NCBI GenBank assembly: GCA_964427735.1 | Contig: CAYRUS010000001.1 | Coordinates: 356,747-420,746 of the forward strand | Direction: 5' to 3' | DNA length: 64,000 nt | From: an uncultured Gammaproteobacteria bacterium | GTDB taxonomy: Bacteria > Patescibacteriota > Microgenomatia > UBA8517 | The notes under the pieces: generated by a model | Seen by the model: the letters and a program-made list of their open reading frames with translations, nothing else | Told to the model about the DNA's origin: nothing | Databases searched by the model: none | Program-made: the position numbers and the translations under genes | Part shown: in pieces, positions 20,481 through 47,402 of the stretch | Numbering within the stretch: the first letter of the stretch is position 1 | How the letters are laid out: each line of letters starts with the position of its first letter

Positions 20481-22139
20481 TCAGCCCGATATCTTAATAT
20501 CTTTTATTTTAAGCTGTAAACTCCTTGCTCCGTTAAACAAGTTTTCCTCTAATGAGTATGCAATATCAACAACTGCATCCTTTTTAAGGGTAGCTGACAT
20601 CTCTCCAAAATTAAATGCAATTGCTTCCATTGGAAAACTATTTTGCCAAAGCACTAACTTTAGATGTTTCTTTTCTTGTCCTACAGATCTTGATTCTAAA
20701 ATTCTGACTTTTGTGGATGAAAAAGTAGGTGATGGATTACCTAAACCAACTGGTTCAAATATCTTCAAAGCCGTTTCTAATTCCCAGTTTAATTGACTAA
20801 AGTCCAAATTTATATCAATCTTTAATTCTCTTGAAAGTATTTCGCTTGTTATCATCTTATTGCAAACTAATGTAAATTCTTCAATAAATTTATCCAAGTT
20901 GCTTGTTTTGATTGTAAATCCCGCTGCCATCGTGTGGCCCCCTCCTTGTTCTATAATTCCATTTAACTGCCTAATCGCTTCAATTATATTGAAACCAGAA
21001 ATTGATCTAGCAGAGGCTTTAGAGATATCTTTTCCCTTCGTGATTACAATAGAGGGTCTGTAAAATTCTTCAACTAATCGAGAAGCTGCTAAACCTATTA
21101 TTCCTTCGTGGTAATCTTCATTAGCAATTATTATTGGTCCATTATCAGTTAATACTACGTTTTCTCTTGCATGAAGTACCACTTCTTCAACAACACTTTG
21201 GCGTTCTTTATTTGTTTTGGAAAGCAAATACGAGAGTTCTCTTGCTTTGTTTTCTGACTTTGTACACAAAAGCCTTAAAGAGTCCATCGCGTGCTTCATT
21301 CTGCCCATTGCGTTTAATCTAGGAGCAATCATAAATCCAATATGATAAGCGTTTAATTTGTCTTTTTGGAATCCTGAGTCATTGTATAGCGCATCTAACC
21401 CTGGACGTGTACTTTTCCTAAGTTCCTTTATACCAAACTTTGCAAAACTCCTATTCACACCAACAAGCGGCATCATATCTGAAACAGTACCAATAGCAGC
21501 TAATTCCAATCCATTATTTACTTTTTCCTCTTTTGAAAAAGCTCTATATATCTCACGCGCAACTATCCATGCTAAAGCTGAACCACTAACTTTTGTTGTG
21601 TGAACAACTGAATATGCTTCAGGTGGATATTCACCAATCTGATGATGGTCTGTCACGATTACATCAATCCCCAGATTTTGTATTTTTTCAATTTCCTTAT
21701 TTGCAACTATTCCATTATCAACAGTTATAATTAAAGAAATTTTCTTATCATTTTTATTTAAATTTTTTACACTCTTAAAATTTATTCCATATCCTTCACT
21801 AAATCTATTAGGCAAATATGGTAAAGCTTCAATCTTTAATAAATACAAACACTCCCATAAAATTGCTGTTGCAGTAACTCCATCAGCATCATAATCTCCG
21901 TAAATAATAACTCTTTCACCTTTTTCTTTTGCAGCTTTAATTCTTTCTATTAGTTTAAGAATTTGTTTTTTGTTAATATCTAAAGCTCCCAAAGAAATAT
22001 CCTTAGGGTGGGTGGGGTTAGTAAACTCACTCTTCTCAGATTCACTTACCAAGCCTCGATTTGTAAGTAAAGTATCCACAATTTCCTCTGTGGTTAGCTT
22101 TGGATTATCTTTTTTCTCTGATAATATTTTCCAATTCAT
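20481..22139 (-). CDS. recJ: single-stranded-DNA-specific exonuclease RecJ
   Basis: DHH motifs YGDYDADGVTATAIL, ITVDNG, IVTDHH. DHHA1 region GGGHTMAAGF. Confidence 0.85.
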   Translation of the reverse strand: MNWKILSEKKDNPKLTTEEIVDTLLTNRGLVSESEKSEFTNPTHPKDISLGALDINKKQILKLIERIKAAKEKGERVIIYGDYDADGVTATAILWECLYLLKIEALPYLPNRFSEGYGINFKSVKNLNKNDKKISLIITVDNGIVANKEIEKIQNLGIDVIVTDHHQIGEYPPEAYSVVHTTKVSGSALAWIVAREIYRAFSKEEKVNNGLELAAIGTVSDMMPLVGVNRSFAKFGIKELRKSTRPGLDALYNDSGFQKDKLNAYHIGFMIAPRLNAMGRMKHAMDSLRLLCTKSENKARELSYLLSKTNKERQSVVEEVVLHARENVVLTDNGPIIIANEDYHEGIIGLAASRLVEEFYRPSIVITKGKDISKASARSISGFNIIEAIRQLNGIIEQGGGHTMAAGFTIKTSNLDKFIEEFTLVCNKMITSEILSRELKIDINLDFSQLNWELETALKIFEPVGLGNPSPTFSSTKVRILESRSVGQEKKHLKLVLWQNSFPMEAIAFNFGEMSATLKKDAVVDIAYSLEENLFNGARSLQLKIKDIKISG

Positions 22140-29464: not shown

Positions 29465-30076
29465 ATGACTATTTCTCCATCTCCCAAAAAAGTAATTAAA
29501 GCATTTGGATCTTTACCAACAGATGTCCCACTAGAAGTTTTTCACTCTGATCCTTATAAAGCGTTAATATCTACAGTTATGTCGTCAAGAACAAAAGATG
29601 AAACTACACTCGATGCAGCTAATAAACTTTTCAAGAAAGCACCTGATATTTATAAACTTAGCAAATTAAAAAAGGAAACTATAGAAAAACTAATTTACCC
29701 CGTTGGCTTTTATAAAACCAAAGCAAAAAACCTTCTACTACTTGCAGACAAAATTATCAATGAATATGATGGCATGGTTCCTAATACCAGAGAAGAGTTA
29801 ATGTCGCTTCCTGGAGTAGGCAGAAAAACTGCAAATCTGGTTTTAAACAGAGCGTTTGATAAACCAGCAATTGCAGTAGACACACATGTTCACAGAATAA
29901 GTAACATCATAGGTTGGGCAAAAAGTAAAAGCCCGGAGGAGACCGAAAAACAACTAATGCAAAAACTACCCAAAAAGTATTGGAAAGATATTAATGTTTA
30001 TTTTGTTTCTGTAGGTAGACAGTTTAGGTCAATGAAAAGACTTCTGGAATTTTTAGATGAAAAGGGATTGATATAA
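29465..30076 (+). CDS. HhH-GPD DNA glycosylase (endonuclease III-like, no Fe-S cluster)
   Basis: HhH-GPD motif LPGVGRKTANLVL with catalytic Lys and Asp (AVDTHV). C-terminus lacks the four-Cys Fe-S loop. Confidence 0.75.
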   Translation: MTISPSPKKVIKAFGSLPTDVPLEVFHSDPYKALISTVMSSRTKDETTLDAANKLFKKAPDIYKLSKLKKETIEKLIYPVGFYKTKAKNLLLLADKIINEYDGMVPNTREELMSLPGVGRKTANLVLNRAFDKPAIAVDTHVHRISNIIGWAKSKSPEETEKQLMQKLPKKYWKDINVYFVSVGRQFRSMKRLLEFLDEKGLI

Positions 30077-30077
30077 A

Positions 30078-30974
30078 CTAAATTTTCCCATTCAATAATC
30101 GCTTCTCCAATTCTTTTTGTAATTTTAAACTTGTTATATTATCTGACTCAGCATCCATGTATCCACCAACAATTCTTTGTGCCAAAATAAGTTTAAAACA
30201 ATAATTATCTTCGTCTAAGAATTTGTATACCTGGCGAAATTCGTCTAAAAATTTATCTGCGATATCTGGACGTTTGAGTTTTGTATAAACTCTATGATAA
30301 AAGTAAGCCACGTCATAAAACTTAATTCCTTTTAATCTTGCTCTTTCTCCGTCTATCAGATAAAGACTATTATTCTTTGTAATTATAAAATGCCACGGTA
30401 CAAAATCTGAGTGTATAGGTGCTATTTGTACATGGTTAATATAACTTTCTATGTATTCGATAAGATTAGTGGTGTTGGTTGATGTTTTGGTGCTCCATTC
30501 TTTAACTTTCTCAAGGATTTTTTGTGAGAGTGTAATTTCATTTATATCCTCGTTCCCTTTAGTAAATTCATCGGGTATTGTGTCCATTTTAATTATTTTT
30601 TCAGCAGTTAAAGCTATCTTTCCAAGGTTTGTTATTAATAATTGAACGTCATCTTTATTTTCAACTTTTACTAACTCATGACCTTCTACATACTCACCTA
30701 TGTACCAGAATAATTGATCAAGTTTTCCTGAATTGTAAACTTTGGGTACTTTTACTGGAAAGTCATTGACTTCACTATTAATAAAATTATTCCAACTAAA
30801 TTCGTTTTCAGTTAACGGGCTAACTTCTGGGAAAGCTGCGAGTTTTAAAAAATAAGTTTTACTGTCTATTACTGCTTTTCCTACCAAATGCCTCCATGGC
30901 TGATGTAAGTTTGAAAGGACATAACCTTTTTTGCCAAAATAATTTTCAACATACTGAATATCAAGTTTTTCCAT
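30078..30974 (-). CDS. APH/choline-kinase-family phosphotransferase-like protein (possibly degenerate)
   Basis: Kinase-like catalytic loop HSDFVPWHF (HxDxxxxN with Asn replaced by His) and IDGERA (DxE-like). Confidence 0.45.
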   Translation of the reverse strand: MEKLDIQYVENYFGKKGYVLSNLHQPWRHLVGKAVIDSKTYFLKLAAFPEVSPLTENEFSWNNFINSEVNDFPVKVPKVYNSGKLDQLFWYIGEYVEGHELVKVENKDDVQLLITNLGKIALTAEKIIKMDTIPDEFTKGNEDINEITLSQKILEKVKEWSTKTSTNTTNLIEYIESYINHVQIAPIHSDFVPWHFIITKNNSLYLIDGERARLKGIKFYDVAYFYHRVYTKLKRPDIADKFLDEFRQVYKFLDEDNYCFKLILAQRIVGGYMDAESDNITSLKLQKELEKRLLNGKI

Positions 30975-30982
30975 TGCAATTT

Positions 30983-31057
30983 TTACTCATATGCAGCAAT
31001 TACTACTCCAAAAGTGTTTTGGACGTATATGCACAAAAATAGTTTAACATAAGGAGT
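30983..31057 (-). pseudogene. remnant 3' end (about 25 codons + stop + 8 nt) of a paralogue/orthologue of the CAP-domain gene at 32242-32892
   Basis: 52-nt stretch about 88% identical to 32242-32293. Translates ...PYVKLFLCIYVQNTFGVVIAAYE* versus the intact gene's ...EYVYGCIYAQNTFGVAIAAYE*. In frame with, but separated by a stop from, the gene at 31058. Confidence 0.55.
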
Positions 31058-31660
31058 TTACTTTCTAGCTTGAACTACTTTTGTATATTGATAAAATGCC
31101 TCTATTGAATCTTCATCTTCCCACCATCCTGATTTTTGATGAATCGGAATTTGATCTGGCCTAGTACACCTTATATACCCAGGACTCCACCTCCAACCTG
31201 CTGGCCAATTCTGCTTATCTGTACCTGGTTTACCTTGTCTTACCTGAATTGGTTTACTGCCTTTAAATTTCATTCCCAAGAACCATTCCAGTGCAATATT
31301 TAAGGATGTGTGATGAAATTGATTTGGTATGCCAGGTTTATTATAAAAGGCATATGGATCAAAAGCCTCCCTCCTTGTAATTAAATATTTATCATATGTA
31401 TAAGAATGCTTATTAACTAAAAATTCGGCTTGATCAGGATTAAGAAGAAAGTGCCTTACATATCCAGAAACATAAACTTTCCAAAATACATTTTCATATT
31501 CCATGATTTCCCCGTCTTTAGTTTGGTGCACGATTCTCCAGTTTCCTTCACCATATTCTTTATTCCATCTCATAAATAACTCTTCTTTCCTCTTTCCAAA
31601 ATAGCCAGGTCTCTCTACTGTAACCCAGTCAAGTTTTAATAAATTTTCCTTTTCAACCAT
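31058..31660 (-). CDS. hypothetical Trp-rich protein (about 200 aa; start moved to internal Met)
   Basis: The ORF track extends to 31807, but that extension is AT-rich low-complexity and overlaps the nrdR start. MVEKENLLKL at 31660 leaves a 125-bp divergent promoter region. Confidence 0.4.
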   Translation of the reverse strand: MVEKENLLKLDWVTVERPGYFGKRKEELFMRWNKEYGEGNWRIVHQTKDGEIMEYENVFWKVYVSGYVRHFLLNPDQAEFLVNKHSYTYDKYLITRREAFDPYAFYNKPGIPNQFHHTSLNIALEWFLGMKFKGSKPIQVRQGKPGTDKQNWPAGWRWSPGYIRCTRPDQIPIHQKSGWWEDEDSIEAFYQYTKVVQARK

Positions 31661-31785
31661 ACAAATATTAAATGATATAATAATATATATTGATATGACA
31701 TTATCTATATATAAAACTATGTTCATACTTAATTTGTCAAACTCTACGATATATCTCTTTATGTTTATTATGTCAATAAATTGAT

Positions 31786-32241
31786 ATGGAATGTCCGTAT
31801 TGTTCAAAGCAACAAACTTTTGTAACTAATTCAAGAATTACCAGAAAAAATACTCAAGTTTGGAGAAGGCGTAAATGTGCAGCTTGTAAAAATTTATTTT
31901 CTACTTATGAAATAATAGATCTGTCACATCTTAATGTAATTAAAAAATCTGGTAAAACTGAAAGGTTTTCAAAATATAAACTTTATTCGGGAATCTACGG
32001 AGCAACAATTGGATCAAAAACCCCAAACAGGGAAAAAGTTGTTGAAAGCCTTACGTTAATTGTAGAGAAGAAAATTTTGTTGCTTAATAAAAAAAGAGTT
32101 AGTTCACAAGAAATTGCAGACATAGTACTAAACATTCTTAGAAAAAAAAGTACTGGTACATTTCTTCGTTTTCTGGCTTATACGAAGGATATAAAAACTG
32201 AAGTTCAAATGAGGAAAGAATTAAACAAATATACAAAATAA
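31786..32241 (+). CDS. nrdR: transcriptional repressor NrdR (zinc ribbon + ATP-cone)
   Basis: N-terminal CPYC...x22...CAAC zinc ribbon, then an ATP-cone (VIKKSGKTERFSKYKL). No nrd genes in the window. Confidence 0.85.
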   Translation: MECPYCSKQQTFVTNSRITRKNTQVWRRRKCAACKNLFSTYEIIDLSHLNVIKKSGKTERFSKYKLYSGIYGATIGSKTPNREKVVESLTLIVEKKILLLNKKRVSSQEIADIVLNILRKKSTGTFLRFLAYTKDIKTEVQMRKELNKYTK

Positions 32242-32892
32242 TTACTCATATGCTGCAATTGCTACTCCAAAAGTGTTTTGAGCATAGATGCACCCATATA
32301 CATATTCACCACCCGTCATGAGTTTTTTATGACCTAGTGTGTTCTCCCACAACTGAACTGCTTCTTGAGGAGTTGTTGCTCCTTGAACTAAAAATTCACT
32401 TATAGCGTATTTTTCAAAAATCCATTTTAAGTCAGGTCTTCTTTCAGGCAGATTACTAAAACCTTCGTGACCGTCTAACTTACCCATTTCCAATAGTTCA
32501 TTTAAACGAAGTGAGGCAATTGTACATAATTCTTCTCTTATTGTAAGCTGAGCAACTCCATGTCCGACTCTTGCTATGTTTACCTCTTCCCAAAGCTCTG
32601 GTCCTCCCCAAGGGACAGGAGTACTGCTGATTTTTTTAACAGGTCTTTCATCCACAGTAACAGGTAGCGGTTCTGGAGTTTCTGGTATAGAATCTGAAGT
32701 ACCAACCCGCCTCCCTATCAAACTTAAAATGTTTGAAAATTGTGCCTCTGTCTCAGACTTTCCATCATTCACCCCATTAAAATATCCTGCCATGTATATT
32801 CCTGACATCAATACCAATATTGCAAATACGCCTAATACATATAAAAAACCTTCTAAAAGGCTTTTAGTTATTGGTTTAATTTTATTTTTCAT
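32242..32892 (-). CDS. membrane-anchored CAP/SCP (YkwD-like) domain protein
   Basis: N-terminal TM. C-terminal LWENTLGHKKLMTGGEYVYGCIYA matches the CAP-family W.NS.GHR.N.L......IG.G pattern. Confidence 0.5.
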   Translation of the reverse strand: MKNKIKPITKSLLEGFLYVLGVFAILVLMSGIYMAGYFNGVNDGKSETEAQFSNILSLIGRRVGTSDSIPETPEPLPVTVDERPVKKISSTPVPWGGPELWEEVNIARVGHGVAQLTIREELCTIASLRLNELLEMGKLDGHEGFSNLPERRPDLKWIFEKYAISEFLVQGATTPQEAVQLWENTLGHKKLMTGGEYVYGCIYAQNTFGVAIAAYE

Positions 32893-33326
32893 TGTTCAAT
32901 GATAATCGTCACCGGACCGTCTAAAGATGCTTCAATATTCATATATTCTCCAAAACTTCCTGTTTCCACTTTAATATCCAGACTTTTTAACTTTTCCACA
33001 AAGTAATTATAAAGTACTTTTGCGTTTTTGGGAGATGCTGCTTTAATAAATGATGGTCTGTTCCCAGCATTGGTGTCTGCGTATAACGTAAACTGAGACA
33101 CAACAATAATTGGTAAGTTTTTGTCCTTTATCGAGAAATTCATTTTTCCATCTTTATCAGCAATAATACGAAGTTTAGCAAGCTTTTCTGCAAGCTTATC
33201 AGCAGATTCTTTTGTGTCTTTTTGACTAATTCCTAATAATAGGAATAACCCTTTTTCAATTTGTCCGACAACCTTATCATCCACTCTTACTTTTGTCCTG
33301 TTCACTCTTAGAATAACTGCTTTCAT
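32889..33326 (-). CDS. dtd: D-aminoacyl-tRNA deacylase
   Basis: Full-length match to the DTD pattern, including SQFTLYAD and the C-terminal DGPVTI. Confidence 0.9.
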   Translation of the reverse strand: MKAVILRVNRTKVRVDDKVVGQIEKGLFLLLGISQKDTKESADKLAEKLAKLRIIADKDGKMNFSIKDKNLPIIVVSQFTLYADTNAGNRPSFIKAASPKNAKVLYNYFVEKLKSLDIKVETGSFGEYMNIEASLDGPVTIIIEQ

Positions 33327-33348: not shown

Positions 33349-34887
33349 TTATAGATATTCGTTATCAACAGGGCGATATTGCAAAGCTTCTGCAATGTGT
33401 TGTGTTTTAATTTCTTCGGATTTATCTAAATCTGCTATTGTTCTTGCTACTTTAACAACCTTAAAGTAGCTTCTTGCAGAAAGATTCATCTTTGAAATAG
33501 CACTTCGCATAATAATTAAGCACTCATCTGATAACTTGCAATATTTTTTAGCTTCTCTGGTGGTCATTTCACTATTTGATATTATTTTTGTATTTTGAAA
33601 ACGTTTTGTTTGGACATCTCTTGCCTTTTGTACTCTTTTTTGTATTATTGCAGATGATTCTGTATTTTTTTCTGGATTCTTTTCTACAAGCTTTTGCGTT
33701 TCGACTGAGGGAACAGAAATGTGGATGTCAATTCTATCCATAATCGGACCAGATATCCTTTTTTGATATCTTGATATTTGCCCGGGCAGGCACTTGCATT
33801 GCCGCTTTTTATCACCAAAGTAGCCGCATGGACAGGGGTTAGCAGCAGCTACTAGCAAAAAACTAGCAGGAAAAGTTACAGAAGCTTTAGCTCTTGAGAT
33901 ACTAACAATATGATCTTCGAGTGGCTGCCTAAGTGCCTCTAGAACATTTCGAGGAAACTCTGGAAACTCATCTAAAAAAAGTACTCCTCTATGAGCAAGT
34001 GAAATTTCACCAGGAGATGGATTAGTACCACCACCAATCAAACCAATTCTACTTGTTGTATGATGCGGGCTTCTAAATGGCCGGCTTGTGATGAGTGACT
34101 CATTTTGGGTAAGGTTTCCTGTTATTGAAAAGATTTTAGTTACCTCTAGAGATTCATCCTCTGTCAAGTCAGGCAAGATACCGGGAAGTGCTCGAGCTAA
34201 CATCGTTTTCCCTGATCCGGGAACTCCTTTAAGAAAGATATTGTGTCCTCCTGCGGCTGCCACTTCCAATGATCTTTTTGCCTGCTCTTGTCCAATCACC
34301 TCTTTGAAGTCAAAGTCGGAGTTCGATGATTTAATAAGCTTTTTGAGTTCTATCTTTTCACTTTTTTCTATTTTTAGTCTACCAGTTAAATGCCTTACCA
34401 AAGCAAGTAGGTTGTCAAAGGCATAAATATCTATACCAGGAACCACAGCAGCTTCTGTTTCATTCACTTTTGGAAGATATACTTTTTTAAAACCTTTTTC
34501 TTTTGCAAGAAACGCAAGGGGCAAAATTCCTTTAGTGTGTCTTAAAGTACCATCTAACGATAATTCACCGAAAAAAAGTGAGTCAGAAGTGTTTACTGAA
34601 ATTTGACCAGAAGCAATTAGGATTCCGAGAGCTATTGGAAGATCATACACAGGGCCTTCTTTGGGCAAATCAGCAGGTGCTAGATTAATAGTTATTCTGC
34701 TGATGGGAAAATCAGCACCGGAATTTTTAATAGCAGACCGGACTCTCTCTTTTGCTTCTTCAACAGCTTTCCCAGGCAAACCTACAATTGTCAAAGAAGG
34801 TAATCCTTCGTTAGGTATATCAACTTCTACTTCAACCGGTATTGCATTCATTCCAACAGTTGCAGCTGAAGTGATTTTGGCAAGCAT
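33349..34887 (-). CDS. YifB/ComM-family Mg-chelatase-like AAA+ ATPase
   Basis: N-terminal Lon-protease-like domain. Walker A GVPGSGKT, Walker B VLFLDEF. Cys-rich insert CPCGYFGD...CKC. Confidence 0.85.
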   Translation of the reverse strand: MLAKITSAATVGMNAIPVEVEVDIPNEGLPSLTIVGLPGKAVEEAKERVRSAIKNSGADFPISRITINLAPADLPKEGPVYDLPIALGILIASGQISVNTSDSLFFGELSLDGTLRHTKGILPLAFLAKEKGFKKVYLPKVNETEAAVVPGIDIYAFDNLLALVRHLTGRLKIEKSEKIELKKLIKSSNSDFDFKEVIGQEQAKRSLEVAAAGGHNIFLKGVPGSGKTMLARALPGILPDLTEDESLEVTKIFSITGNLTQNESLITSRPFRSPHHTTSRIGLIGGGTNPSPGEISLAHRGVLFLDEFPEFPRNVLEALRQPLEDHIVSISRAKASVTFPASFLLVAAANPCPCGYFGDKKRQCKCLPGQISRYQKRISGPIMDRIDIHISVPSVETQKLVEKNPEKNTESSAIIQKRVQKARDVQTKRFQNTKIISNSEMTTREAKKYCKLSDECLIIMRSAISKMNLSARSYFKVVKVARTIADLDKSEEIKTQHIAEALQYRPVDNEYL

Positions 34888-39134: not shown

Positions 39135-39608
39135 TTACCTAGTCACGGTAATTGTTGGTGTCAATTCACCAGTAGCACTCGCAACTACACGTCCGTCTGA
39201 ATCAACATAAATTGTATATCCTGTATTTGCATCGGTGCCTGTTGACGGATCTGCAGGAATAGAAGCAATATAAGTTGGTACGATTACTTCTGTACCTGCT
39301 TCGTTCGTAGCAGCTCCTAAGTCAAAACAAGGTGCAGTGTCACCAATACAAGTAGCTGATGAAGGAAAGTTTGTTTCAGTATCATCTCCATCAGTATCAG
39401 GTAAATTACCATCGTGCTCGGCAGCGAATTGATATATAGAACTCGTTATAGAGTGAAGATCAGCTCGACGTTGTTGATCTCTTGCTAAAGCAAATTGTCT
39501 ACCTGGGTTAACTGCTACTACGACTATTGCAGCCAAAATAGCAATAATACCGATAACAACTAATAACTCAATAAGGGTAAAACCTCTTGTGTTTTTATTT
39601 AGTTTCAT
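39135..39608 (-). CDS. type IV (major) pilin with prepilin-peptidase signal
   Basis: Class III signal KNTRG/FTLIELLVVIGIIAILAAIVV with Glu at +5. Ser/Thr/Asp-rich C-terminal half. Own terminator. Confidence 0.8.
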   Translation of the reverse strand: MKLNKNTRGFTLIELLVVIGIIAILAAIVVVAVNPGRQFALARDQQRRADLHSITSSIYQFAAEHDGNLPDTDGDDTETNFPSSATCIGDTAPCFDLGAATNEAGTEVIVPTYIASIPADPSTGTDANTGYTIYVDSDGRVVASATGELTPTITVTR

Positions 39609-39659
39609 TAATATCTTTCACCCCCTATCATATTATCCTATTACTAGTATTACATATAT

Positions 39660-39890
39660 CTACTCACCTAAGTCAAGTCTATCTACATTCTCAGGTACTA
39701 AAGACTGCTGAGCAGAACGTAATGATGTCACATCAAGATTAACCTCACTTGTTTGCTCAACTTTAACCTCTAAAGTCTCATGCCAAGCAGAAAACATCGT
39801 CCGAACCACAACAGCTATTAGAACCGCAAGTAGACCTAAAACTATAAATATTGCTAAATAAAAACGATTTAATTTGCTAAATTTATTCAT
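39660..39890 (-). CDS. small single-TM protein in the pilus operon, hypothetical
   Basis: 76-aa ORF with an N-terminal TM. Overlaps the upstream gene by 8 nt. Confidence 0.3.
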   Translation of the reverse strand: MNKFSKLNRFYLAIFIVLGLLAVLIAVVVRTMFSAWHETLEVKVEQTSEVNLDVTSLRSAQQSLVPENVDRLDLGE

Positions 39891-40536
39891 TTATATATAA
39901 AAGTATTCCATAGTCTAAAATATAAATATTATCATTGCTGTTTTTACTAAGATCAAAACTTACAGGTCTAAAAAGATAGGGTAAATCTTGAATTTCTTCT
40001 ATAGCTTGTGTGATTTTATTGATATCACCATTAACTGAAATTTTTATTGGATAACCCATTGTAGAAGTTTTGTCTGTAACTTTTTGATTTGATACAAACG
40101 AAAAGTTATCTACAATTCCATTTTTCTTCATTTGATCTAATTCTCCAACAAAATCTACAAGTCTTTGCTCATCTGCTATGAAATTTTCAATGAAGGAAAT
40201 TCTCTCTTCATTTGCCGCAAGCTGAGATCTCAAAACTCCTTCATCATAGTTTATCTCAGTCAGACTATCTTGTTCTAATGTCTCAGGAAGGTTCCCAATT
40301 TTAATTATAAAAATAGTTAATCCAGCAAACAATAAAATATTAATAATACCAAGAATGATAAATCGAGTTGATCTTGAAGAACGCAGACTTGTCTTTTTCT
40401 TTTCCAGCTGATTTACAATAGAATTATTCACATTATTCTCATTTTCTAGCTTATTTTCCTCAGCTTTATTTATGCTTTGTGGAAATTCTTTTTGAGAATC
40501 TTTTTTTTGTTGTGTGCTTTTTATTTGGTCTGGCAT
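39883..40536 (-). CDS. PilO/PilN-like bitopic pilus assembly protein
   Basis: Cytoplasmic N-terminus, one TM, coiled-coil periplasmic part. Position directly after the pilM-pilN fusion. Confidence 0.4.
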   Translation of the reverse strand: MPDQIKSTQQKKDSQKEFPQSINKAEENKLENENNVNNSIVNQLEKKKTSLRSSRSTRFIILGIINILLFAGLTIFIIKIGNLPETLEQDSLTEINYDEGVLRSQLAANEERISFIENFIADEQRLVDFVGELDQMKKNGIVDNFSFVSNQKVTDKTSTMGYPIKISVNGDINKITQAIEEIQDLPYLFRPVSFDLSKNSNDNIYILDYGILLYINE

Positions 40537-40537
40537 G

Positions 40538-41968
40538 TTATTGCAATTTCAACTTTGGTTTTGTAACCGGTTTTAAGGGTAAGTATTCAAAAGTCATATC
40601 AAAAGAAATATCTGCCTCTTGTTCCAAAGCATTTACAGGAATAACAACATTTCCAAAATCACCACTTGACTCTAAACTTGTTTTAAAGGAAAGTAAGTCA
40701 CTTCTCGAAGGGGCAGTTCCTGCTACTGATACTCCTCCTTTATCTAAATCTAACTGGTAGCTATCAATAACTACTCCTTCTGGTTTCGCTTCATTGATTG
40801 GGTTAATAATTTCTTGAGGCATTGTTCTGGCTTCACTAATAGCTAATATTTTTTTTGTTAAGCTATTTATTTTATTAACCCTATCTAATACTTCCTGCGA
40901 TTGGGCAGGTAAGTTTTCCTGTATAGAATTCCCATTTGAAAACCTGCTTTGCATAAAAATATAAAACGAAATAGCTGATAATAAACAAACAAGTAAAACA
41001 AATGCCGAAAACCCAAACAAAAAAGTCATCTTAAGCCCAAAATCCTTTTCCTGGCGACTTTCATAAAAAACAGCAGGAAGAAGATTAACAGATTTGCTAT
41101 CAGCTGGTGCTTCTGGGGTTGCCATTTGCGATGAAATAGGAACAAGATACTCGTTAAATTCTTCACTAGACAGGCCATCAACTGATGGAGGAATACCTTC
41201 AGGAGCAAGTCCTGTTAACTGCTCTATTTTTTGATAAAAAGAAGCATTAAATCCTTTCCCTGCAACAACAATTTTTTCCGGCTTGAATTTATTATAATGC
41301 TGGAGCATCCTTCTAATCGTATTCAAAACAACATCTTCTTCATCAACAGCAACAACAGAACTTCCTGCAATTCGCCAACCCTTTGACAAAACGAGAATTA
41401 CTTCCTCGAAGTTTTTATATATTATTAATCTACTAAGATCTTCTTTTCCAGCAATTCTAACTAAAGATAATGCTTGAGTTTCTACAGCAACAGGAGTTAA
41501 ATCTGCAAAAATTACTGCATCTATATACCCATACAAAAGTTCTTTATCGATTGCTACCACCAAATATTGAATAGATGTACCAACCTCTCCAGCAATTTTC
41601 CAATCAACGATCATCTCATTTGTGGCAGATGGAAGAAAATCCTTTACTTGCCATTTTAAAGCTTCTGTTACTTCTTCATCTTTTAGTCTTGGAAGATCTA
41701 TTAACTTTGTGTAAGTTGAAAATTCTGGTATTACCAACGAAACTTGAGATTCCTCTATACCTACTTCCTTAATACTTTTTTTGATTAAATCACTGAGTTT
41801 TTGTTTATCTACTACTTTGTAATCAACAATTGTATTTTCCGGCAAATTCACATTTGCTATCGTACGTGTTTTTTTGAGACTTGTGTCATTAAGATAAACA
41901 ATTTGGAGCTTATCTTTGGTAAAAGATATTGTAAAAAATTCACTTTTTATCATGGCAGGTATATCCAT
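40538..41968 (-). CDS. pilM: type IV pilus assembly protein PilM fused to a PilN-like C-terminal domain
   Basis: Actin-like ATPase fold over about 300 aa. Then NLLP motif and a TM helix (FLFGFSAFVLLVCLLSAISFYIF) plus a periplasmic tail. Confidence 0.65.
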   Translation of the reverse strand: MDIPAMIKSEFFTISFTKDKLQIVYLNDTSLKKTRTIANVNLPENTIVDYKVVDKQKLSDLIKKSIKEVGIEESQVSLVIPEFSTYTKLIDLPRLKDEEVTEALKWQVKDFLPSATNEMIVDWKIAGEVGTSIQYLVVAIDKELLYGYIDAVIFADLTPVAVETQALSLVRIAGKEDLSRLIIYKNFEEVILVLSKGWRIAGSSVVAVDEEDVVLNTIRRMLQHYNKFKPEKIVVAGKGFNASFYQKIEQLTGLAPEGIPPSVDGLSSEEFNEYLVPISSQMATPEAPADSKSVNLLPAVFYESRQEKDFGLKMTFLFGFSAFVLLVCLLSAISFYIFMQSRFSNGNSIQENLPAQSQEVLDRVNKINSLTKKILAISEARTMPQEIINPINEAKPEGVVIDSYQLDLDKGGVSVAGTAPSRSDLLSFKTSLESSGDFGNVVIPVNALEQEADISFDMTFEYLPLKPVTKPKLKLQ

Positions 41969-42078
41969 TATATAATAAGTATTAGACGATGTTTAAATCA
42001 TTATGTGACAAAATCTTTTCAGTCAATTGACCATAAAAAAATTAGTCCCAACAAGCCTTAGTTGTTATACTGGAAATA

Positions 42079-43434
42079 ATGCCTACACTGCCTAAAACAA
42101 TTTTCATTAAAGGTAACACGATCATAGGTATTCTTATTGGTTTAGGTGTTCTTTCGATTCTTTCCTATACTGTTATTATATTGTCCACTACAACATACCA
42201 ACTGGTTGGTTATACAAGAGCCAGAACAGTTGCAAGAAATATAGCTGTCACTCAAATTGAGATGATCAGAAATATGCCATATGATGAGATTGGAACACAA
42301 GGAGGCATCCCACAAGGGGATTTACTTCAAACCCAAGACATTGTAGAAAATGGTCAAAATTATCAAATTAGAAGAACTATAACTTATGTTGATGATCCAT
42401 TTGACCAACTGACCCCAATTGATACGTTGCCTACTGATTACAAAAGAGTTCGTATCGAAATCTCATGGGAAGGCGTATCAAAATCAAATGCAGCACCAGT
42501 AGTATTAACAACTGATGTGGTTCCAAAAGGAGTTGAATCTACTGAAGGTGGAGGTACATTATCTATTTTGGTTTTTAATTCTCAAGGTTTACCAGTACCT
42601 CAAGCTCAAGTCCATATTGTATCTAATGATCAAACAAACCCAGTCGATTTAACTCAATTTACAAGTGATACAGGACATATAGTTTTACCCGGTACGCCTG
42701 CCTGCCTGGAGTGCTATGAAATTACAGTAACAAAAGATGGGTTTAGTATTGACAAAACTTACTCAAATACAGAAGTTGATACTCCTGATAAACCTCATAT
42801 TAGTGTCATAGAGGGAAACCTGACAGAAACTAGCTTTGCGATCGATAGAGTTTCCTCACTCACTTTAAATACATACGGATCAAGAGAAGACGGCTTTCCT
42901 ATTATGGTAAATGTACCTATTATAGTCAAAGGAGAAAAAACAATTGGGGTAGATGTAGCAGATCAACCTGTTTATAAATTTAGCCAAGAGTTTGTTACAA
43001 ATGAGAATGGAGAATTAACAATTGAAAACCTCGAATGGGACAACTATTACATCTCAGTTCCAGATCAATCTTCTTACTCTATAAGCGGTCTTAGTAAAAC
43101 CATGCCATATTCTATTTTGCCAAACACAGACGACTCTTTGGATATTTCTATATCTTCATTTACACCAAATTCCCTACTCACGGCTTTTGTGGACGAAAAC
43201 AAATCACCGATAGCTTCTGTCTCAGCTATTCTAAAAGATGGCAATGTACCAATTGCAACAATCTCCAGTGGACTAGAAAATGACCCAGACTTTGGACAAG
43301 CGTTCTTTAGTGATCTAGCCCAAAAAACTTATGCTTTGGAAGCAACTGCAGCTGGGTTTATAGATTTTAGCGGAATAGTGAATATATCGGGACAAGTTTA
43401 TGACTTAATACCACTCACAAAAGAAGAGTTGTAA
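42079..43434 (+). CDS. large N-terminally anchored pilus-associated protein (minor-pilin-like, degenerate prepilin motif)
   Basis: N-terminus KGNTIIGILIGLGVL resembles a class III signal but lacks Glu+5. First gene of the divergent module upstream of two prepilin-type genes. Confidence 0.35.
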   Translation: MPTLPKTIFIKGNTIIGILIGLGVLSILSYTVIILSTTTYQLVGYTRARTVARNIAVTQIEMIRNMPYDEIGTQGGIPQGDLLQTQDIVENGQNYQIRRTITYVDDPFDQLTPIDTLPTDYKRVRIEISWEGVSKSNAAPVVLTTDVVPKGVESTEGGGTLSILVFNSQGLPVPQAQVHIVSNDQTNPVDLTQFTSDTGHIVLPGTPACLECYEITVTKDGFSIDKTYSNTEVDTPDKPHISVIEGNLTETSFAIDRVSSLTLNTYGSREDGFPIMVNVPIIVKGEKTIGVDVADQPVYKFSQEFVTNENGELTIENLEWDNYYISVPDQSSYSISGLSKTMPYSILPNTDDSLDISISSFTPNSLLTAFVDENKSPIASVSAILKDGNVPIATISSGLENDPDFGQAFFSDLAQKTYALEATAAGFIDFSGIVNISGQVYDLIPLTKEEL

Positions 43435-43437
43435 ATT

Positions 43438-44052
43438 ATGAAAAACAAGCAAACATATAGTCTAAAAGGTTTTACACTTATAGAAATAATAGTAGCAACC
43501 TCAATTTCTGTAACTCTCCTTGCTGGAGTTTATCTGGTCCAAAGAATCATTGCCGACACACAATCAGTTACTTGGGACAGTACAATAAAAGTTGAAATTG
43601 CAAATAAAGCCACCGCACCAATAATTAAAGAAATTAGAACTATGAGACCAAGCCAAGACGGAAGATATCCACTTGAAACTGCAGAAAGCCATGAAATTGT
43701 ATTCTATTCAGATATAGATTTCGACGAAAGCGTAGAAAGAGTTAGATATGTTCTAGATGGGAATGTTCTTAGAAAAGGTGTTACAGAACCAAGCGGTTCT
43801 CCGATTGGTTATAACCAAGAAGATGAAGAGTTAACTATTATAAGCGACACAATACAAAATGAGTCAAATCCTGTTTTTTATTACTATAATGAAGATTGGC
43901 CCTCAAATAATAACCCTCTAAATTATCCTGCTCCTACTTCAGAAGTTAAAGTTGTTAAAGTCATGCTAAAAATAGGTAGTAGTCTTGAAGATAATCAGCC
44001 TTATGAGGTTGAAGCTTTTACTAATATTAGAATGTTGAAAGAAAATCTCTAA
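43438..44052 (+). CDS. prepilin-type N-terminal cleavage/methylation domain protein (minor pilin/pseudopilin)
   Basis: LKG/FTLIEIIVATSISV canonical motif. Coupled 3 nt after the upstream gene. Confidence 0.7.
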   Translation: MKNKQTYSLKGFTLIEIIVATSISVTLLAGVYLVQRIIADTQSVTWDSTIKVEIANKATAPIIKEIRTMRPSQDGRYPLETAESHEIVFYSDIDFDESVERVRYVLDGNVLRKGVTEPSGSPIGYNQEDEELTIISDTIQNESNPVFYYYNEDWPSNNNPLNYPAPTSEVKVVKVMLKIGSSLEDNQPYEVEAFTNIRMLKENL

Positions 44053-44054
44053 AT

Positions 44055-45452
44055 ATGAAAAAAGAAGCAGGTTCAGTTACGCCAGCCTTGTTAGTTATTA
44101 TTGGCACGATGGTTGTTGTTATTTATGGTCTTTTGTTGATTTTAGCAATGCAGTTAAATTATTCCCACAGACAAATTGCTTCTGAAGAGGCTCTTCATAT
44201 TGCTGAAGCAGGTATCAATTATTACAGATGGCATCTTGCTCATGATCCAAATGATTACACAGATGGAACTGGTAATCCAGGTCCTTATGTCCGCGAATAT
44301 CACGACCCTGAAGGAGGTTTAGTAGGATACTATGAATTAGAGATCACACCACCCGAATCCGGATCTTCAATTGTTACATTAAAGTCGACAGGTTGGACAA
44401 ATCAATTCCCTTCAGTAAAGCGTACAATAACTGCAAAATACGGAAAACCTTCATTAGCGAGATTTTCTTTCTTATCAAATGCAAGCAGCTGGTATGGTGA
44501 AGGTATAACAGTAAATGGACAAATACACTCAAATAACGGAATAAGGATGGACGGCATCAACACTTCCTCAACTACAAGTGCTAAAGACACTTATATGTGT
44601 GGATCAGAAACAGGGTGTCATCCTCCAGATAACAGACCTGGGGTTTGGGGATTAGGACCAAATTATAATCTTTGGGAATTTCCTGTTCCATCCATTGATT
44701 TTGATTCTATATCATTTGATTTCGCCCAGATGAGAGCAGAAGCTCAAGCTAATGGATTGTATTTGAATGATTCAAAGGCAGAAGGTTATCATCTAGTATT
44801 TAATTCAAATGGAACTTTTGATGTATACAAAGTTAGAAATACCGACTTTATTAGAGGTTATAGTGTTCCTGGACAAGGATTAGGACAAGAAGGTCAAGGA
44901 GGATGTAGAAGATTATTCCAAATAATTACAAAAGAAGATCATGTCGCTACTTATATTGTTGATGATAATCCAATCGTTTTTATTGAAGATCACGTGTGGG
45001 TAGAAGGCACGGTAAAAGGAAGACTAACATTAACTGCTGCCACGTTCCCAATTGCTTCCAGTGATGTAGATATTTGGATAAAAAACAGCATTAAATACAC
45101 CAATTATGACGGTAGTGATATATTAGGGCTAATATCCCAAAATAATATTTACTTTGTTCGCGATGTGCCTGAAAATTTCCAAGTTGATGCAGTTTTAATT
45201 GCCAAAAATGGAAAAATTCTTAGACATGCTTATTATAGTGGTTGTGGAGGTACATTCGGGGGAATTAAGCAAAATCTAACGATCAATGGTTCCTTGATAT
45301 CATTTCATAAATCATACTGGAATTTTGGTGATCCTCTAGTATCTGGGTTTATTTCAAGAACTATAAATTACGATGGTAATGCGCTATATAACCCCCCACC
45401 TTATTTCCCTACATCTGGAGAGTTTGAGTTTATATCTTGGAAAGAAGAATAG
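44055..45452 (+). CDS. PilX-like pilus assembly/minor pilin protein
   Basis: N-terminal hydrophobic helix LLVIIGTMVVVIYGLLLILA typical of PilX-N-like proteins. 465 aa. Coupled to the upstream pseudopilin gene. Confidence 0.4.
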   Translation: MKKEAGSVTPALLVIIGTMVVVIYGLLLILAMQLNYSHRQIASEEALHIAEAGINYYRWHLAHDPNDYTDGTGNPGPYVREYHDPEGGLVGYYELEITPPESGSSIVTLKSTGWTNQFPSVKRTITAKYGKPSLARFSFLSNASSWYGEGITVNGQIHSNNGIRMDGINTSSTTSAKDTYMCGSETGCHPPDNRPGVWGLGPNYNLWEFPVPSIDFDSISFDFAQMRAEAQANGLYLNDSKAEGYHLVFNSNGTFDVYKVRNTDFIRGYSVPGQGLGQEGQGGCRRLFQIITKEDHVATYIVDDNPIVFIEDHVWVEGTVKGRLTLTAATFPIASSDVDIWIKNSIKYTNYDGSDILGLISQNNIYFVRDVPENFQVDAVLIAKNGKILRHAYYSGCGGTFGGIKQNLTINGSLISFHKSYWNFGDPLVSGFISRTINYDGNALYNPPPYFPTSGEFEFISWKEE

Positions 45453-45453
45453 T

Positions 45454-47401: not shown

Positions 47402-47402
47402 A

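What the first reader, a model, noticed from the sequence alone, without database searches (positions are those of the whole stretch)
30983..32293. Diverged direct repeat / gene remnant brackets a two-gene cassette (Trp-rich hypothetical + nrdR)
A 52-nt stretch at 30983-31034 is about 88% identical to 32242-32293 (46/52 nt by my count). The second copy is the genuine 3' end of the CAP-domain gene at 32242-32892. The first copy is an orphan fragment in the 83-bp gap between the kinase-like gene and the hypothetical gene at 31058. It still encodes ...CIYVQNTFGVVIAAYE* versus CIYAQNTFGVAIAAYE*. Protein-level similarity extends about 11 more codons upstream. The fragment is in frame with the hypothetical gene through its TAA stop. 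The 1.2-kb segment between the copies holds only the unassignable Trp-rich protein and an orphan nrdR with no nrd genes nearby. This looks like the scar of an insertion/replacement or a partial gene duplication then deletion. The 12% divergence argues against a very recent event.
Basis: seen in the sequence. Interest (0 to 1): 0.55.

Follow-up and report, generated by a model that had tools for sequence, protein, structure and literature searches.

The report
Insertion scar: duplicated gene end
A short orphan copy of the last 17 codons of a conserved secreted-protein gene marks where extra genes were spliced into the end of that gene in an uncultured groundwater bacterium, and the same scar recurs at the same gene end in at least three (probably four) other lineages, each time with different inserted genes and no visible recombination enzyme.

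Summary
The repeat is real. Window 30983-31034 matches 32242-32293 at 46/52 nt (37/39 in the stop-proximal core), and it is the only strong repeat in 64 kb. The claimed further 11 codons of similarity are background.

The genome is a Candidatus Woesebacteria (CPR) bacterium. In relatives the usual order is Dtd > CAP >|< Nth, often with overlapping stop codons. Here nrdR, a Trp-rich gene, the orphan CAP end and an APH kinase lie between CAP and Nth.

An orphan CAP 3' end also lies 0.55-1.45 kb downstream of an intact CAP gene in three other lineages, and probably a fourth. The genes enclosed differ: a toxin-antitoxin pair, a GH1 glycosidase, an unknown gene, and HD plus hydrolase. Two remnants start exactly 38-39 nt before the end of the stop codon. 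A near-identical empty-site strain shows that the gene-proximal end came in with the insert and the distal remnant is the native end, as with attL/attR.

No recombinase, transposon ends, terminator or RNA structure was found. Best reading: a recombination scar at a recurrent insertion point in the CAP 3' end. Whether the mechanism is att-like or illegitimate recombination between strains is unresolved.

Side finding: nrdR and the Trp-rich gene form a conserved divergent pair with NrdR-box-like palindromes. The Trp-rich protein has a confident model with no known fold.

The parts
32242..32892 (-). Intact CAP/SCP (YkwD-like) gene, 216 aa, with an N-terminal membrane anchor. Its 3' end is the recombination target.
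   Evidence: Weak Pfam CAP hit. About 800 homologs at 50-60% identity in Woesebacteria and other Microgenomates, with a nearly invariant C-terminus.
32242..32293 (-). Gene-proximal repeat copy (attL-like): the last 16 codons plus the stop of the working CAP gene. High-identity core 32242-32280. Contains CAAAA-CAC-TTTTG dyad symmetry.
31786..32241 (+). nrdR (Zn-ribbon plus ATP-cone repressor). Its stop codon directly abuts the CAP stop codon. It lies between the two repeat copies.
   Evidence: Pfam PF22811 and PF03477. Sequence.
31661..31785 (.). Divergent nrdR / Trp-rich gene intergenic region with two NrdR-box-like palindromes (31683-31694 and 31774-31785).
   Evidence: Six-genome alignment A6. 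Pattern search. Conserved box positions C4, A6, A8, T9, T11, G13 from PMC13584703.
31058..31660 (-). Trp-rich 200-aa protein of unknown function, conserved partner of nrdR. It lies between the two repeat copies.
30983..31034 (-). Distal orphan copy (attR-like remnant) of the CAP 3' end: CIYVQNTFGVVIAAYE*. Core 30983-31021. It carries two Ala-to-Val changes at family-invariant positions, consistent with decay. Contains a perfect 7-3-7 palindrome, TCCAAAA-CAC-TTTTGGA.
30078..30974 (-). APH-family kinase-like gene starting 8 nt after the remnant's stop codon. Its homologs sit in unrelated contexts, so its presence at this locus is specific to this genome.
   Evidence: Pfam PF01636. Homologs at most 47% identical. 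Contexts L208-L210.
29465..30076 (+). Endonuclease III (Nth), the conserved convergent neighbour that abuts CAP directly in most relatives. It marks the far edge of the variable spot.
32889..33326 (-). D-Tyr-tRNA deacylase (Dtd), the conserved upstream neighbour. It marks the near edge of the conserved frame.

Best explanation
The orphan fragment is a recombination scar. DNA was inserted into the last roughly 39-54 nt of the CAP gene. The incoming DNA carried its own copy of the CAP gene end, so the gene stayed intact (proximal copy, attL-like). The displaced original end was left non-coding on the far side of the insert (distal copy, attR-like).

By analogy with the other lineages, the inserted unit in the window is the 1,259-nt segment holding the replacement gene end plus nrdR and the Trp-rich gene. 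The older arrangement would then be Dtd-CAP-APH-Nth.

The CAP 3' end behaves as a recurrent, position-specific insertion point in Woesebacteria and related Microgenomates. My preferred mechanism is att-like recombination at or next to the dyad-symmetric CCAAAA-N3-TTTTGG motif, about 38-39 nt before the end of the stop codon. The enzyme would not be encoded in the insert, so it acts in trans or has been lost, as with cis-mobilizable elements.

Shown:
- the repeat itself
- its recurrence with different cargo
- the conserved CAP|Nth frame
- the native-distal, foreign-proximal pattern in L014 against L174
- the absence of a recombinase in the inserts, flanks and window

Inferred:
- that the window followed the same route
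- which of the window's two copies is native
- that a site-specific enzyme is involved

I put about 0.8 on the general claim that this is an insertion or recombination scar at a recurrent site. I put about 0.45 on the att-like, site-directed mechanism.
For: 1. The repeat is real and unique in the window.
2. Across 101 loci with both CAP and a convergent Nth, 68 abut and 33 carry variable inserts. The frame Dtd>CAP>|<Nth<DUF5679 is conserved.
3. Orphan CAP ends in the same orientation lie 0.55-1.45 kb downstream of an intact CAP gene in other lineages, enclosing unrelated genes:
   - L014 (also L103, L187): Gp49-like toxin plus HTH antitoxin
   - L054 (also L096, L144): GH1 glycosidase
   - L126: unknown 159-aa protein
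   - L179 (decayed remnant): HD plus serine hydrolase

4. In a profile of the CAP end, the remnants start at model positions 19, 20 and 21 in L014, L054 and L126, and at position 10 in the window. DNA conservation along CAP shows no step there that could explain this through homology alone.
5. Empty site: L174 matches L014 at 98.8% over the 1,163-nt alignment that runs to the CAP stop codon, and the two are identical over the aligned stretch just upstream of GCCCAA. L174's last 33 nt match the L014 distal remnant (3 differences) and not the proximal copy (about 10 differences, mostly synonymous). The shared sequence at the switch is only about 6 nt.
6. In L054 both copies share a 31-nt identical block. 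After it, the distal copy continues into sequence about 95% identical to the native downstream of L160, while the proximal copy continues into the GH1 gene.
7. Control: no orphan Nth or Dtd 3' ends in 107 and 105 loci.
8. In the window, the distal copy's closest relative among 192 CAP ends is its own proximal copy. Both share an extra Glu codon seen in only 1 of 192 others.
9. There is no terminator, no RNA structure beyond shuffles and no terminal inverted repeats.
Against: - No integrase or other site-specific recombinase was found in any insert, within 6-8 kb of the site in the loci examined, or in the Pfam-screened ORFs of the window. That screen covered all but a few of the ORFs of 100 aa or more.
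- The sequences flanking the repeats share no arm motif between lineages (read).
- The window's repeat runs to about -54, not -39. The L126 boundary depends on where a 1-nt gap is placed.
- In L054 the CAP body is only about 79% identical to L160, while the remnant plus downstream is about 95%. That suggests a larger replaced tract than a small circular cassette would give.
- nrdR's stop codon abuts the CAP stop codon with 0 nt between them. That looks like a long-settled chromosomal junction rather than the edge of a dedicated mobile element.
- The nrdR / Trp-rich pair also sits at this locus, without any flanking remnant of its own, in L126, L206 and L200. In the window the added part could therefore equally be the remnant plus APH.
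- No viral contig carries the CAP-end sequence.
- There are only four to five cases, so the clustering of boundaries is suggestive rather than proven.
Confidence: 0.45

Rival explanations
1. Illegitimate (homology-facilitated) recombination between two strain variants of the same locus. One chromosome type carried CAP|nrdR-TrpRich|Nth and another carried CAP-APH|Nth. DNA from one entered the other, for example by natural transformation. It recombined homologously on one side, in CAP or in Nth, and joined non-homologously on the other side inside the CAP 3' end. This produced an additive hybrid with a leftover CAP end. No dedicated element or site-specific enzyme is involved. The recurrence would reflect a break-prone or join-prone spot, such as the palindrome, together with loss of longer and unstable direct repeats.
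For: - The cargo in every case consists of ordinary chromosomal genes that lie next to CAP or in the CAP|Nth gap in other lineages. The HD gene follows CAP directly in L179 and follows the remnant in L014/L103. The nrdR / Trp-rich pair lies at this locus in L126, L206 and L200.
- Junctions are as tight as settled chromosomal ones; the CAP and nrdR stop codons abut.
- The CAP body of L054 diverges from L160 far more than the downstream region does.
- Between L014 and L174 the region downstream of the site also differs. L014 has an extra HD gene, and by eye its Nth is only about 75% identical.
- The window encodes RecA, RecJ and a type IV pilus set.
- No recombinase was found anywhere.
Against: - In L014 the switch from 98.8% identity to foreign sequence and the start of the remnant fall at the same about 6-nt point. 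That is automatic for a single reciprocal exchange but a coincidence for two independent junctions.
- Two or three independent remnants start within 3 nt of each other, although CAP is equally conserved for about 70 nt.
- All inserts end within 0-23 nt of intact genes and contain no truncated gene fragments.
- No orphan Nth ends exist, although the symmetric event should create them.
Confidence: 0.35
2. In-situ origin: a tandem duplication spanning the CAP 3' end, followed by deletions, with no foreign DNA involved.
For: The two window copies are each other's closest relatives and share a rare extra Glu codon.
Against: - It needs a duplication plus two precise deletions, removing the CAP body and everything between the CAP stop and the APH start.
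- No other duplicated sequence remains in the window.
- It cannot explain L014, where the copies differ by many synonymous changes and the proximal one differs from the empty-site strain.
- It cannot explain the different cargo at the same point in other lineages.
Confidence: 0.06
3. The orphan copy is kept because it does something: a terminator for the Trp-rich gene, an expression signal for the downstream APH, a small peptide, or an antisense or decoy element.
For: - In all cases a co-oriented gene starts 4-35 nt after the remnant's stop codon.
- The remnant keeps its reading frame and stop codon.
- A TTG codon precedes the Cys codon.
Against: - No terminator-like site was found.
- Folding energy is no better than shuffles, with z of -0.5 and -0.1.
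- Two invariant Ala residues have changed to Val, and upstream similarity has been lost.
- Most occupied loci have no remnant at all (28 of 33).
- The remnant in L179 is frameshifted.
Confidence: 0.06
4. Chance similarity or an assembly artefact.
For: None beyond the short length of the repeat.
Against: - 0 matches are expected in shuffles.
- The window arrangement appears in independent assemblies: two Logan runs, and the CAP protein record also lists an NCBI source with a 759,860-nt contig.
- The L014-type and L054-type structures were each recovered from three assemblies of different wells or samples.
Confidence: 0.02

Closest known systems
Genomic islands / integrative elements inserted in the 3' end of a protein-coding gene (e.g. 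SGI1 at trmE; ICESt1/ICESt3 at fda, the latter recalled from memory), and their decayed forms, cis-mobilizable elements (CIMEs)
   Same: - Direct repeats made of the target gene's 3' end flank the inserted DNA.
- The gene stays intact because the incoming DNA supplies a look-alike end.
- The displaced native end sits at the far border.
- Like a CIME, there are no integration or transfer genes between the repeats. The CIME definition is from PMC5704250. SGI1 integration at the 3' end of trmE is from PMC8409611 (abstract).
   Different: - No integrase was found in any of the four to five cases, or nearby.
- The inserts are tiny (0.55-1.45 kb, one or two ordinary genes), with no decayed mobility genes.
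- No conserved arm sequences exist.
- The cargo looks like normal chromosomal neighbours of the same gene in other strains.
- The host is a CPR bacterium, for which I found no description of such elements.
Homology-facilitated illegitimate recombination during natural transformation (described in Acinetobacter and Streptococcus; recalled from memory)
   Same: It is additive: foreign DNA is gained next to a conserved anchor gene without any mobile-element genes. One junction is homologous and the other falls at microhomology.
   Different: The known process gives scattered junctions. Here the junctions recur within a few nucleotides in one gene end, and in L014 both junctions coincide.
Tycheposons and other cargo-carrying islands at conserved hot spots in streamlined genomes (Prochlorococcus; bioRxiv 10.1101/2020.12.28.424599, listed; details recalled from memory)
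   Same: A streamlined genome, a recurrent insertion spot next to a conserved gene, partial repeats of the target gene flanking variable cargo, and some units without a recombinase.
   Different: Tycheposons target tRNA genes and are defined by a tyrosine recombinase family. Neither a tRNA nor such a recombinase is present here.
Integron gene cassettes
   Same: Compact units of one or two genes with minimal flanks, added next to a fixed site. Newer insertions appear to lie closest to the anchor, as in L014 against L179.
   Different: There is no IntI, attI or attC. The repeated site is the coding end of a gene. No array with several remnants was seen in about 200 loci.

Membership tests
Site-specific integrative element in the 3' end of a gene (GI/IME/ICE type) | Direct repeats (attL/attR) consisting of the 3' end of the target gene flank the insert | tested here: met
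   Window 46/52 nt. The same holds in L014, L054 and L126, and in decayed form in L179.
Site-specific integrative element in the 3' end of a gene (GI/IME/ICE type) | The proximal gene end is supplied by the insert and the distal repeat is the native end, as judged against an empty site | tested here: inconclusive
   Met for L014 against the empty-site strain L174. Consistent for L054 against L160. Not testable for the window, because no close relative with an empty site was found.
Site-specific integrative element in the 3' end of a gene (GI/IME/ICE type) | An integrase (tyrosine or serine recombinase) is encoded next to an att site | tested here: not met
   Pfam on the window genes and the cargo genes found none. 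The gene lists around the site show none. A tyrosine-recombinase box II regex found nothing in the window or any locus (a crude test).
Site-specific integrative element in the 3' end of a gene (GI/IME/ICE type) | Excision to a circular form carrying attP, regenerating attB | not testable with these tools
   Needs reads or PCR across the predicted junctions. The viral contig scan for the CAP-end sequence gave 0 hits.
Cis-mobilizable element (CIME) | [quoted passage not shown] | tested here: met
   The repeats are present and no mobility genes lie between them. This shows descriptive agreement only.
Cis-mobilizable element (CIME) | Derives from a decayed ICE/IME and can be mobilised in trans by a related element's integrase | not testable with these tools
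   No related integrase-bearing element was found at this site in about 200 loci.
Transposon / insertion sequence | Terminal inverted repeats, a short target-site duplication and a transposase | tested here: not met
   No meaningful terminal inverted repeats. The duplication is 39-54 nt and, in L014, differs at synonymous sites. No transposase was found.
Diversity-generating retroelement (template repeat / variable repeat at a gene's 3' end) | A reverse transcriptase nearby, with mismatches confined to adenines of the non-coding copy | tested here: not met
   No RT in the Pfam-screened genes of the window. The mismatches include C/T and T/C positions.
Xer-dependent element (IMEX) at dif | The site lies at the replication terminus and resembles a 28-bp dif site | tested here: not met
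   There is no switch of gene-strand bias or skew at the locus. By eye the repeat has no dif-like 11-6-11 layout. The dif consensus is recalled from memory, so this is a weak test.
Integron cassette array | IntI integrase, an attI site and attC sites bounding each cassette | tested here: not met
   No integrase was found. The repeated site is the CAP coding end. No locus has more than one remnant.
NrdR regulon (side finding: the Trp-rich gene as an NrdR target) | 16-bp partially palindromic NrdR boxes with conserved C4, A6, A8, T9, T11, G13, normally two boxes 15-16 bp apart (PMC13584703) | tested here: inconclusive
   Two boxes are conserved across six genomes in the nrdR / Trp-rich intergenic region. 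They match 6/6 conserved positions in most genomes and 5/6 in the window. However, they lie about 90 nt apart rather than at the canonical spacing.

The most novel reading that the evidence does not exclude
The coding 3' end of the CAP gene is a dedicated gene-capture site in Woesebacteria and other Microgenomates. A host-encoded or trans-acting enzyme, either a recombinase or a site-specific nuclease acting at the CCAAAA-N3-TTTTGG dyad, repeatedly opens the gene about 39 nt before its end. Small modules of one or two genes, each bringing its own synonymous replacement gene end, are stitched in. This would be a recombinase-less, integron-like way for ultra-small genomes to acquire and shuffle accessory genes. 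The incoming ends in L014, L126 and L179 lack the perfect dyad, so each capture may make the site resistant to further capture.
Probability: 0.15. Interest if true: 0.8.

Novelty: new variant of a known kind. Interest (0 to 1): 0.5.

Why it matters
How CPR/Patescibacteria, with genomes under 1 Mb and few recognisable mobile elements, gain and exchange accessory genes is poorly understood. This locus gives a concrete and testable example. One conserved gene end serves repeatedly as the seam where unrelated genes are added, including a toxin-antitoxin pair, a glycosidase, hydrolases, a kinase and a regulator pair. The gene is repaired each time by a look-alike end, and no recombinase is visible.

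If an enzyme or a structural hot spot is responsible, it would define a new route of gene flow in streamlined genomes. It would also provide a marker, orphan gene ends, for finding other such seams.

If instead this is ordinary illegitimate recombination between strains, it is still a clean natural record of additive gene gain.

Separately, nrdR is paired with a conserved protein of unmatched fold, behind NrdR-box-like sites and with no ribonucleotide reductase nearby. This points to an undescribed member of the dNTP-supply regulon in organisms thought to depend on nucleotide salvage.

Tried and rejected
- **Generic terminator-associated or dispersed repeat:** rejected. The window holds only two copies, the motif is specific to CAP genes, and there is no terminator or stable structure.
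- **tRNA-linked island:** rejected. The only tRNA is at 63.2 kb.
- **Transposon with target duplication:** rejected.
- **DGR template/variable repeat pair:** rejected. No RT, and the mismatch pattern is wrong.
- **dif/Xer site:** rejected. There is no terminus signature.
- **Phage or plasmid attP carrying the CAP end:** a degenerate 33-nt pattern found nothing in IMG/VR.
- **Homology-only explanation for the -39 boundary:** rejected, because DNA conservation is flat over the last roughly 70 nt.
- **APH context:** I looked for CAP-APH-Nth in relatives to decide which part of the window is the insert. APH homologs (at most 47% identity) all sit in unrelated contexts, so this did not settle the matter.
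- **Trp-rich gene contexts:** these showed that the nrdR / Trp-rich pair is a conserved module often found at this locus. That weakened the simple "mobile two-gene cassette" reading.
- **Literature searches for comparable elements in CPR bacteria:** nothing specific found.
- **Palindrome enrichment:** a dyad of 5 bp or more occurs in 4/4 distal remnants against 21% of 154 CAP ends. This is post hoc and depends on how the spacer is scored, so I treat it only as a lead.
Full report
**1. What is in the sequence**

The window comes from a low-GC Candidatus Woesebacteria (Microgenomates, CPR) genome. The nearest homologs of its CAP protein are about 57% identical, and the named ones come from Woesebacteria MAGs.

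Genes around the finding, in window coordinates:

| Feature | Coordinates |
|---|---|
| Nth (endonuclease III) | 29465-30076 (+) |
| APH-family kinase-like gene | 30078-30974 (-) |
| 83-nt gap holding the orphan fragment | fragment at 30983-31034 (-) |
| Trp-rich gene, 200 aa, no Pfam domain | 31058-31660 (-) |
| nrdR | 31786-32241 (+) |
| CAP/YkwD-like gene | 32242-32892 (-) |
| Dtd | 32889-33326 (-) |
| ComM | 33349-34887 (-) |

The two repeat copies are 46/52 identical. The 39 nt nearest the stop match at 37/39, and the next 13 nt at 9/13 (P about 0.0025). Beyond that the match falls to background, 12/33 against 9.1 +/- 2.6.

The repeat is the strongest in the 64 kb and is not expected by chance.

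The orphan reads CIYVQNTFGVVIAAYE*. Its two Val residues replace Ala at nearly invariant positions of the family, as expected for a non-coding copy in decay. It is in frame with the Trp-rich gene through the TAA, which I regard as a 1-in-3 coincidence.

Both copies end with an extra Glu codon before the stop. Only 1 of 192 other CAP ends has any extra codon there. The orphan's nearest relative among all CAP ends is the window's own gene end, 44/54 against at most 39/54 for any other. The two copies therefore come from the same or very closely related lineages.

**2. The conserved frame**

I fetched 77 species-representative loci anchored on CAP and 120 metagenome loci.

The recurring order is Dtd > CAP >|< Nth < DUF5679 < small protein > DUF4446 > DUF3048. 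Of 101 loci holding both CAP and a convergent Nth, 68 abut and 33 carry inserts of 250 nt or more. In the abutting loci the spacing suggests that the two stop codons often overlap.

The inserts encode rhomboid protease, M23 peptidase, serine hydrolases, an MBL-fold protein, a Memo-like protein, DUF1749, an HD protein, the nrdR / Trp-rich pair, APH and unknowns. One also has an acetyltransferase-like ORF that I did not run against Pfam. None encodes a recombinase or transposase.

The CAP|Nth seam is thus a variable spot inside a conserved frame. The window carries 2.17 kb there.

**3. The scar is recurrent**

A six-frame fuzzy search and then a nucleotide profile of the last 60 nt of CAP found second, orphan CAP ends downstream of intact CAP genes in other lineages. 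All are in the same orientation.

| Lineage | Distance downstream | Genes enclosed |
|---|---|---|
| L014 (also L103, L187; Hainich wells H51/H41) | 644 nt | Gp49-like toxin + HTH antitoxin |
| L054 (also L096, L144) | 1,449 nt | GH1 glycosidase |
| L126 | 576 nt | 159-aa unknown protein |
| L179 (decayed, frameshifted remnant, E = 0.12) | about 1.15 kb | HD protein + serine hydrolase |

In the profile the remnants begin at model positions 19, 20 and 21 in L014, L054 and L126. That is 37-39 nt before the end of the stop codon. The window's remnant begins at position 10.

DNA conservation along CAP is flat over the last roughly 70 nt. A drop in homology therefore does not explain that boundary.

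The boundary sits at the left edge of a dyad, CCAAAA-N3-TTTTGG, which encodes QNxFG. All four clear remnants carry a dyad of 5-7 bp, against 21% of 154 CAP ends. This is a post hoc observation.

As a control, the same profile approach found no orphan Nth or Dtd 3' ends in 107 and 105 loci.

**4. Which copy is native**

*L014 against L174.* L174 comes from the same aquifer as the L014 type. BLAST aligns it to L014 at 98.8% over 1,163 nt covering Dtd and CAP, and it has CAP directly against Nth. In the three-way alignment, L174 and L014 are identical over the aligned stretch up to GCCCAA. After that point:
- L174's last 33 nt match the L014 distal remnant, with 3 differences.
- The L014 proximal copy differs at about 10 positions, nearly all synonymous.

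The working gene end in L014 therefore arrived with the toxin-antitoxin genes, from a lineage in which it had evolved as a functional gene end. The native end was displaced. Only about 6 nt are shared at the switch, which is too few for RecA-type homologous exchange.

*L054 against L160.* Both copies share an identical 31-nt block. After it, the distal copy runs into sequence about 95% identical to the native downstream region of relative L160, while the proximal copy runs into the GH1 gene.

This is the classical attL/attR pattern of elements that integrate into gene 3' ends.

There are complications:
- Downstream of the L014 remnant lies an HD gene that L174 lacks. The Nth beyond it is, by eye, only about 75% identical to L174's.
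- The same HD gene follows CAP directly in L179. The simplest history is therefore CAP-HD-Nth, with the toxin-antitoxin pair inserted later.
- The CAP body of L054 is only about 79% identical to L160's, which hints at a larger exchanged tract.

**5. The window's own history**

By analogy, the 1,259-nt unit consisting of the replacement end, nrdR and the Trp-rich gene would be the insert, and Dtd-CAP-APH-Nth the older state.

However, the nrdR / Trp-rich pair is not an arbitrary cassette. The Trp-rich protein family is small (56 clusters), and the pair is conserved as a divergent unit in several loci:

| Locus | Arrangement |
|---|---|
| L126 | CAP-hyp159-remnant-hyp78-nrdR-TrpRich\|Nth (the pair lies distal to the remnant) |
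| L206 | Dtd\|nrdR-TrpRich\|Nth (no CAP) |
| L200 | nrdR-TrpRich-MazG-DUF5679 |
| L205, L207 | other contexts |
| L201 | Dtd-TrpRich\|Nth |

APH homologs (at most 47% identical) are never at this locus.

The window can therefore be described equally well as a hybrid of a CAP|nrdR-TrpRich|Nth chromosome and a CAP-APH|Nth chromosome, joined 23 nt after the Trp-rich gene's stop and about 54 nt before the CAP stop. I could not find a close enough relative to decide which part came in.

**6. Mechanism**

Several readings are excluded or disfavoured:
- Chance or assembly artefact. Independent assemblies agree.
- Terminator or structured RNA.
- Transposon.
- tRNA-linked island.
- DGR.
- dif/Xer.
- Integron.
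- In-situ duplication followed by deletion.

Two mechanisms remain.

(a) *Att-like, position-specific recombination at the CAP end, by an enzyme not encoded in the insert* (a CIME-like situation; definition in PMC5704250). In its favour:
- recurrence at one gene end
- coincident boundaries
- the single-point switch in L014
- intact compact cargo
- the absence of orphan Nth ends

(b) *Homology-facilitated illegitimate recombination between strain variants, with a break-prone spot at the dyad.* In its favour:
- the complete absence of recombinases
- the chromosomal character of the cargo and of its tight junctions
- the larger divergent tracts in L054 and L014
- the presence of RecA, RecJ and type IV pilus genes in the window

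I put about 0.8 on "insertion or recombination scar at a recurrent site". Within that I assign 0.45 to (a) and 0.35 to (b).

**7. Comparison with known systems and novelty**

The anatomy matches islands integrated in gene 3' ends and their recombinase-less CIME derivatives. The defining integrase was looked for and not found, so I do not file it as a member of that family.

I found no description of such a seam in CPR bacteria.

I rate it a new variant of a known kind, of moderate interest. The interest would rise sharply if a trans-acting enzyme or a nuclease-triggered capture process were shown.

**8. Side findings**

- The nrdR / Trp-rich intergenic region carries two palindromes conserved across six genomes.
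  - They fit the conserved positions of NrdR boxes, C4, A6, A8, T9, T11 and G13 (PMC13584703).
  - Their spacing is not the canonical 15-16-bp linker.
- In L200 the Trp-rich gene is followed by a MazG-like dNTP pyrophosphohydrolase.
- No ribonucleotide reductase was found in the window.

Noticed in passing
window 31661-31785 (boxes at 31683-31694 and 31774-31785); also L126 7510-7630, L200 461-589, L205 4876-5000, L206 1537-1663, L207 1332-1455: The divergent nrdR / Trp-rich gene intergenic region holds two palindromes conserved in six genomes (consensus ATCAATATATTGAC and TATATCAATATATwG). They match the six conserved positions of NrdR boxes (5/6 in the window). One abuts the nrdR start codon and the other lies about 25-30 nt upstream of the Trp-rich gene's start. 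Their spacing of about 90 nt is not the canonical 15-16-bp linker. This suggests NrdR autoregulation and NrdR control of the Trp-rich gene in genomes where no nrd gene is nearby.
   Followed up: partly
[not shown]
   Followed up: partly
L014 8564-9208 / L103 / L187 compared with L174 (Hainich groundwater wells H41 and H51): Two alleles of the CAP|Nth seam occur in the same aquifer. They are 98.8% identical over Dtd and CAP. One has CAP directly against Nth (a contig labelled cov 41). The other has a toxin-antitoxin pair, the CAP-end remnant and an HD gene (contigs labelled cov 5-11). Contigs tend to break here. This is a natural population in which excision or insertion could be tested from reads.
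   Followed up: partly
L201/L202 5001-5594 and L206 1078-2272: In some lineages the CAP gene is absent from the Dtd-Nth frame. Its place is taken by the Trp-rich gene alone (Dtd-TrpRich|Nth) or by nrdR plus the Trp-rich gene (Dtd|nrdR-TrpRich|Nth), again with overlapping or abutting gene ends. The slot therefore exchanges whole genes, including CAP itself.
   Followed up: no
window 39135-49082 and 59710-60852, 20481-22139: The window encodes a type IV pilus set (pilin with N-methylation motif, PilM, PilC/T2SSF, PilB/T2SSE) plus RecA and RecJ. This machinery is compatible with DNA uptake and recombination. No integrase, transposase or ribonucleotide reductase was found among the screened ORFs.
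   Followed up: partly
window 32242-32244 / 32239-32241; 30074-30080; L005, L007 and other loci at the CAP/Nth junction: Convergent genes here are packed with zero or negative spacing. The CAP and nrdR stop codons abut (TAA|TTA), Nth and APH are 1 nt apart, and in many relatives the spacing between CAP and Nth implies overlapping stop codons. There is no room for terminators between convergent genes.
   Followed up: no
L203/L204 1-1872: Near a Trp-rich gene homolog in another groundwater CPR contig, a pyruvate:ferredoxin oxidoreductase beta-type gene carries an intein with a LAGLIDADG endonuclease domain, according to precomputed Pfam hits.
   Followed up: no
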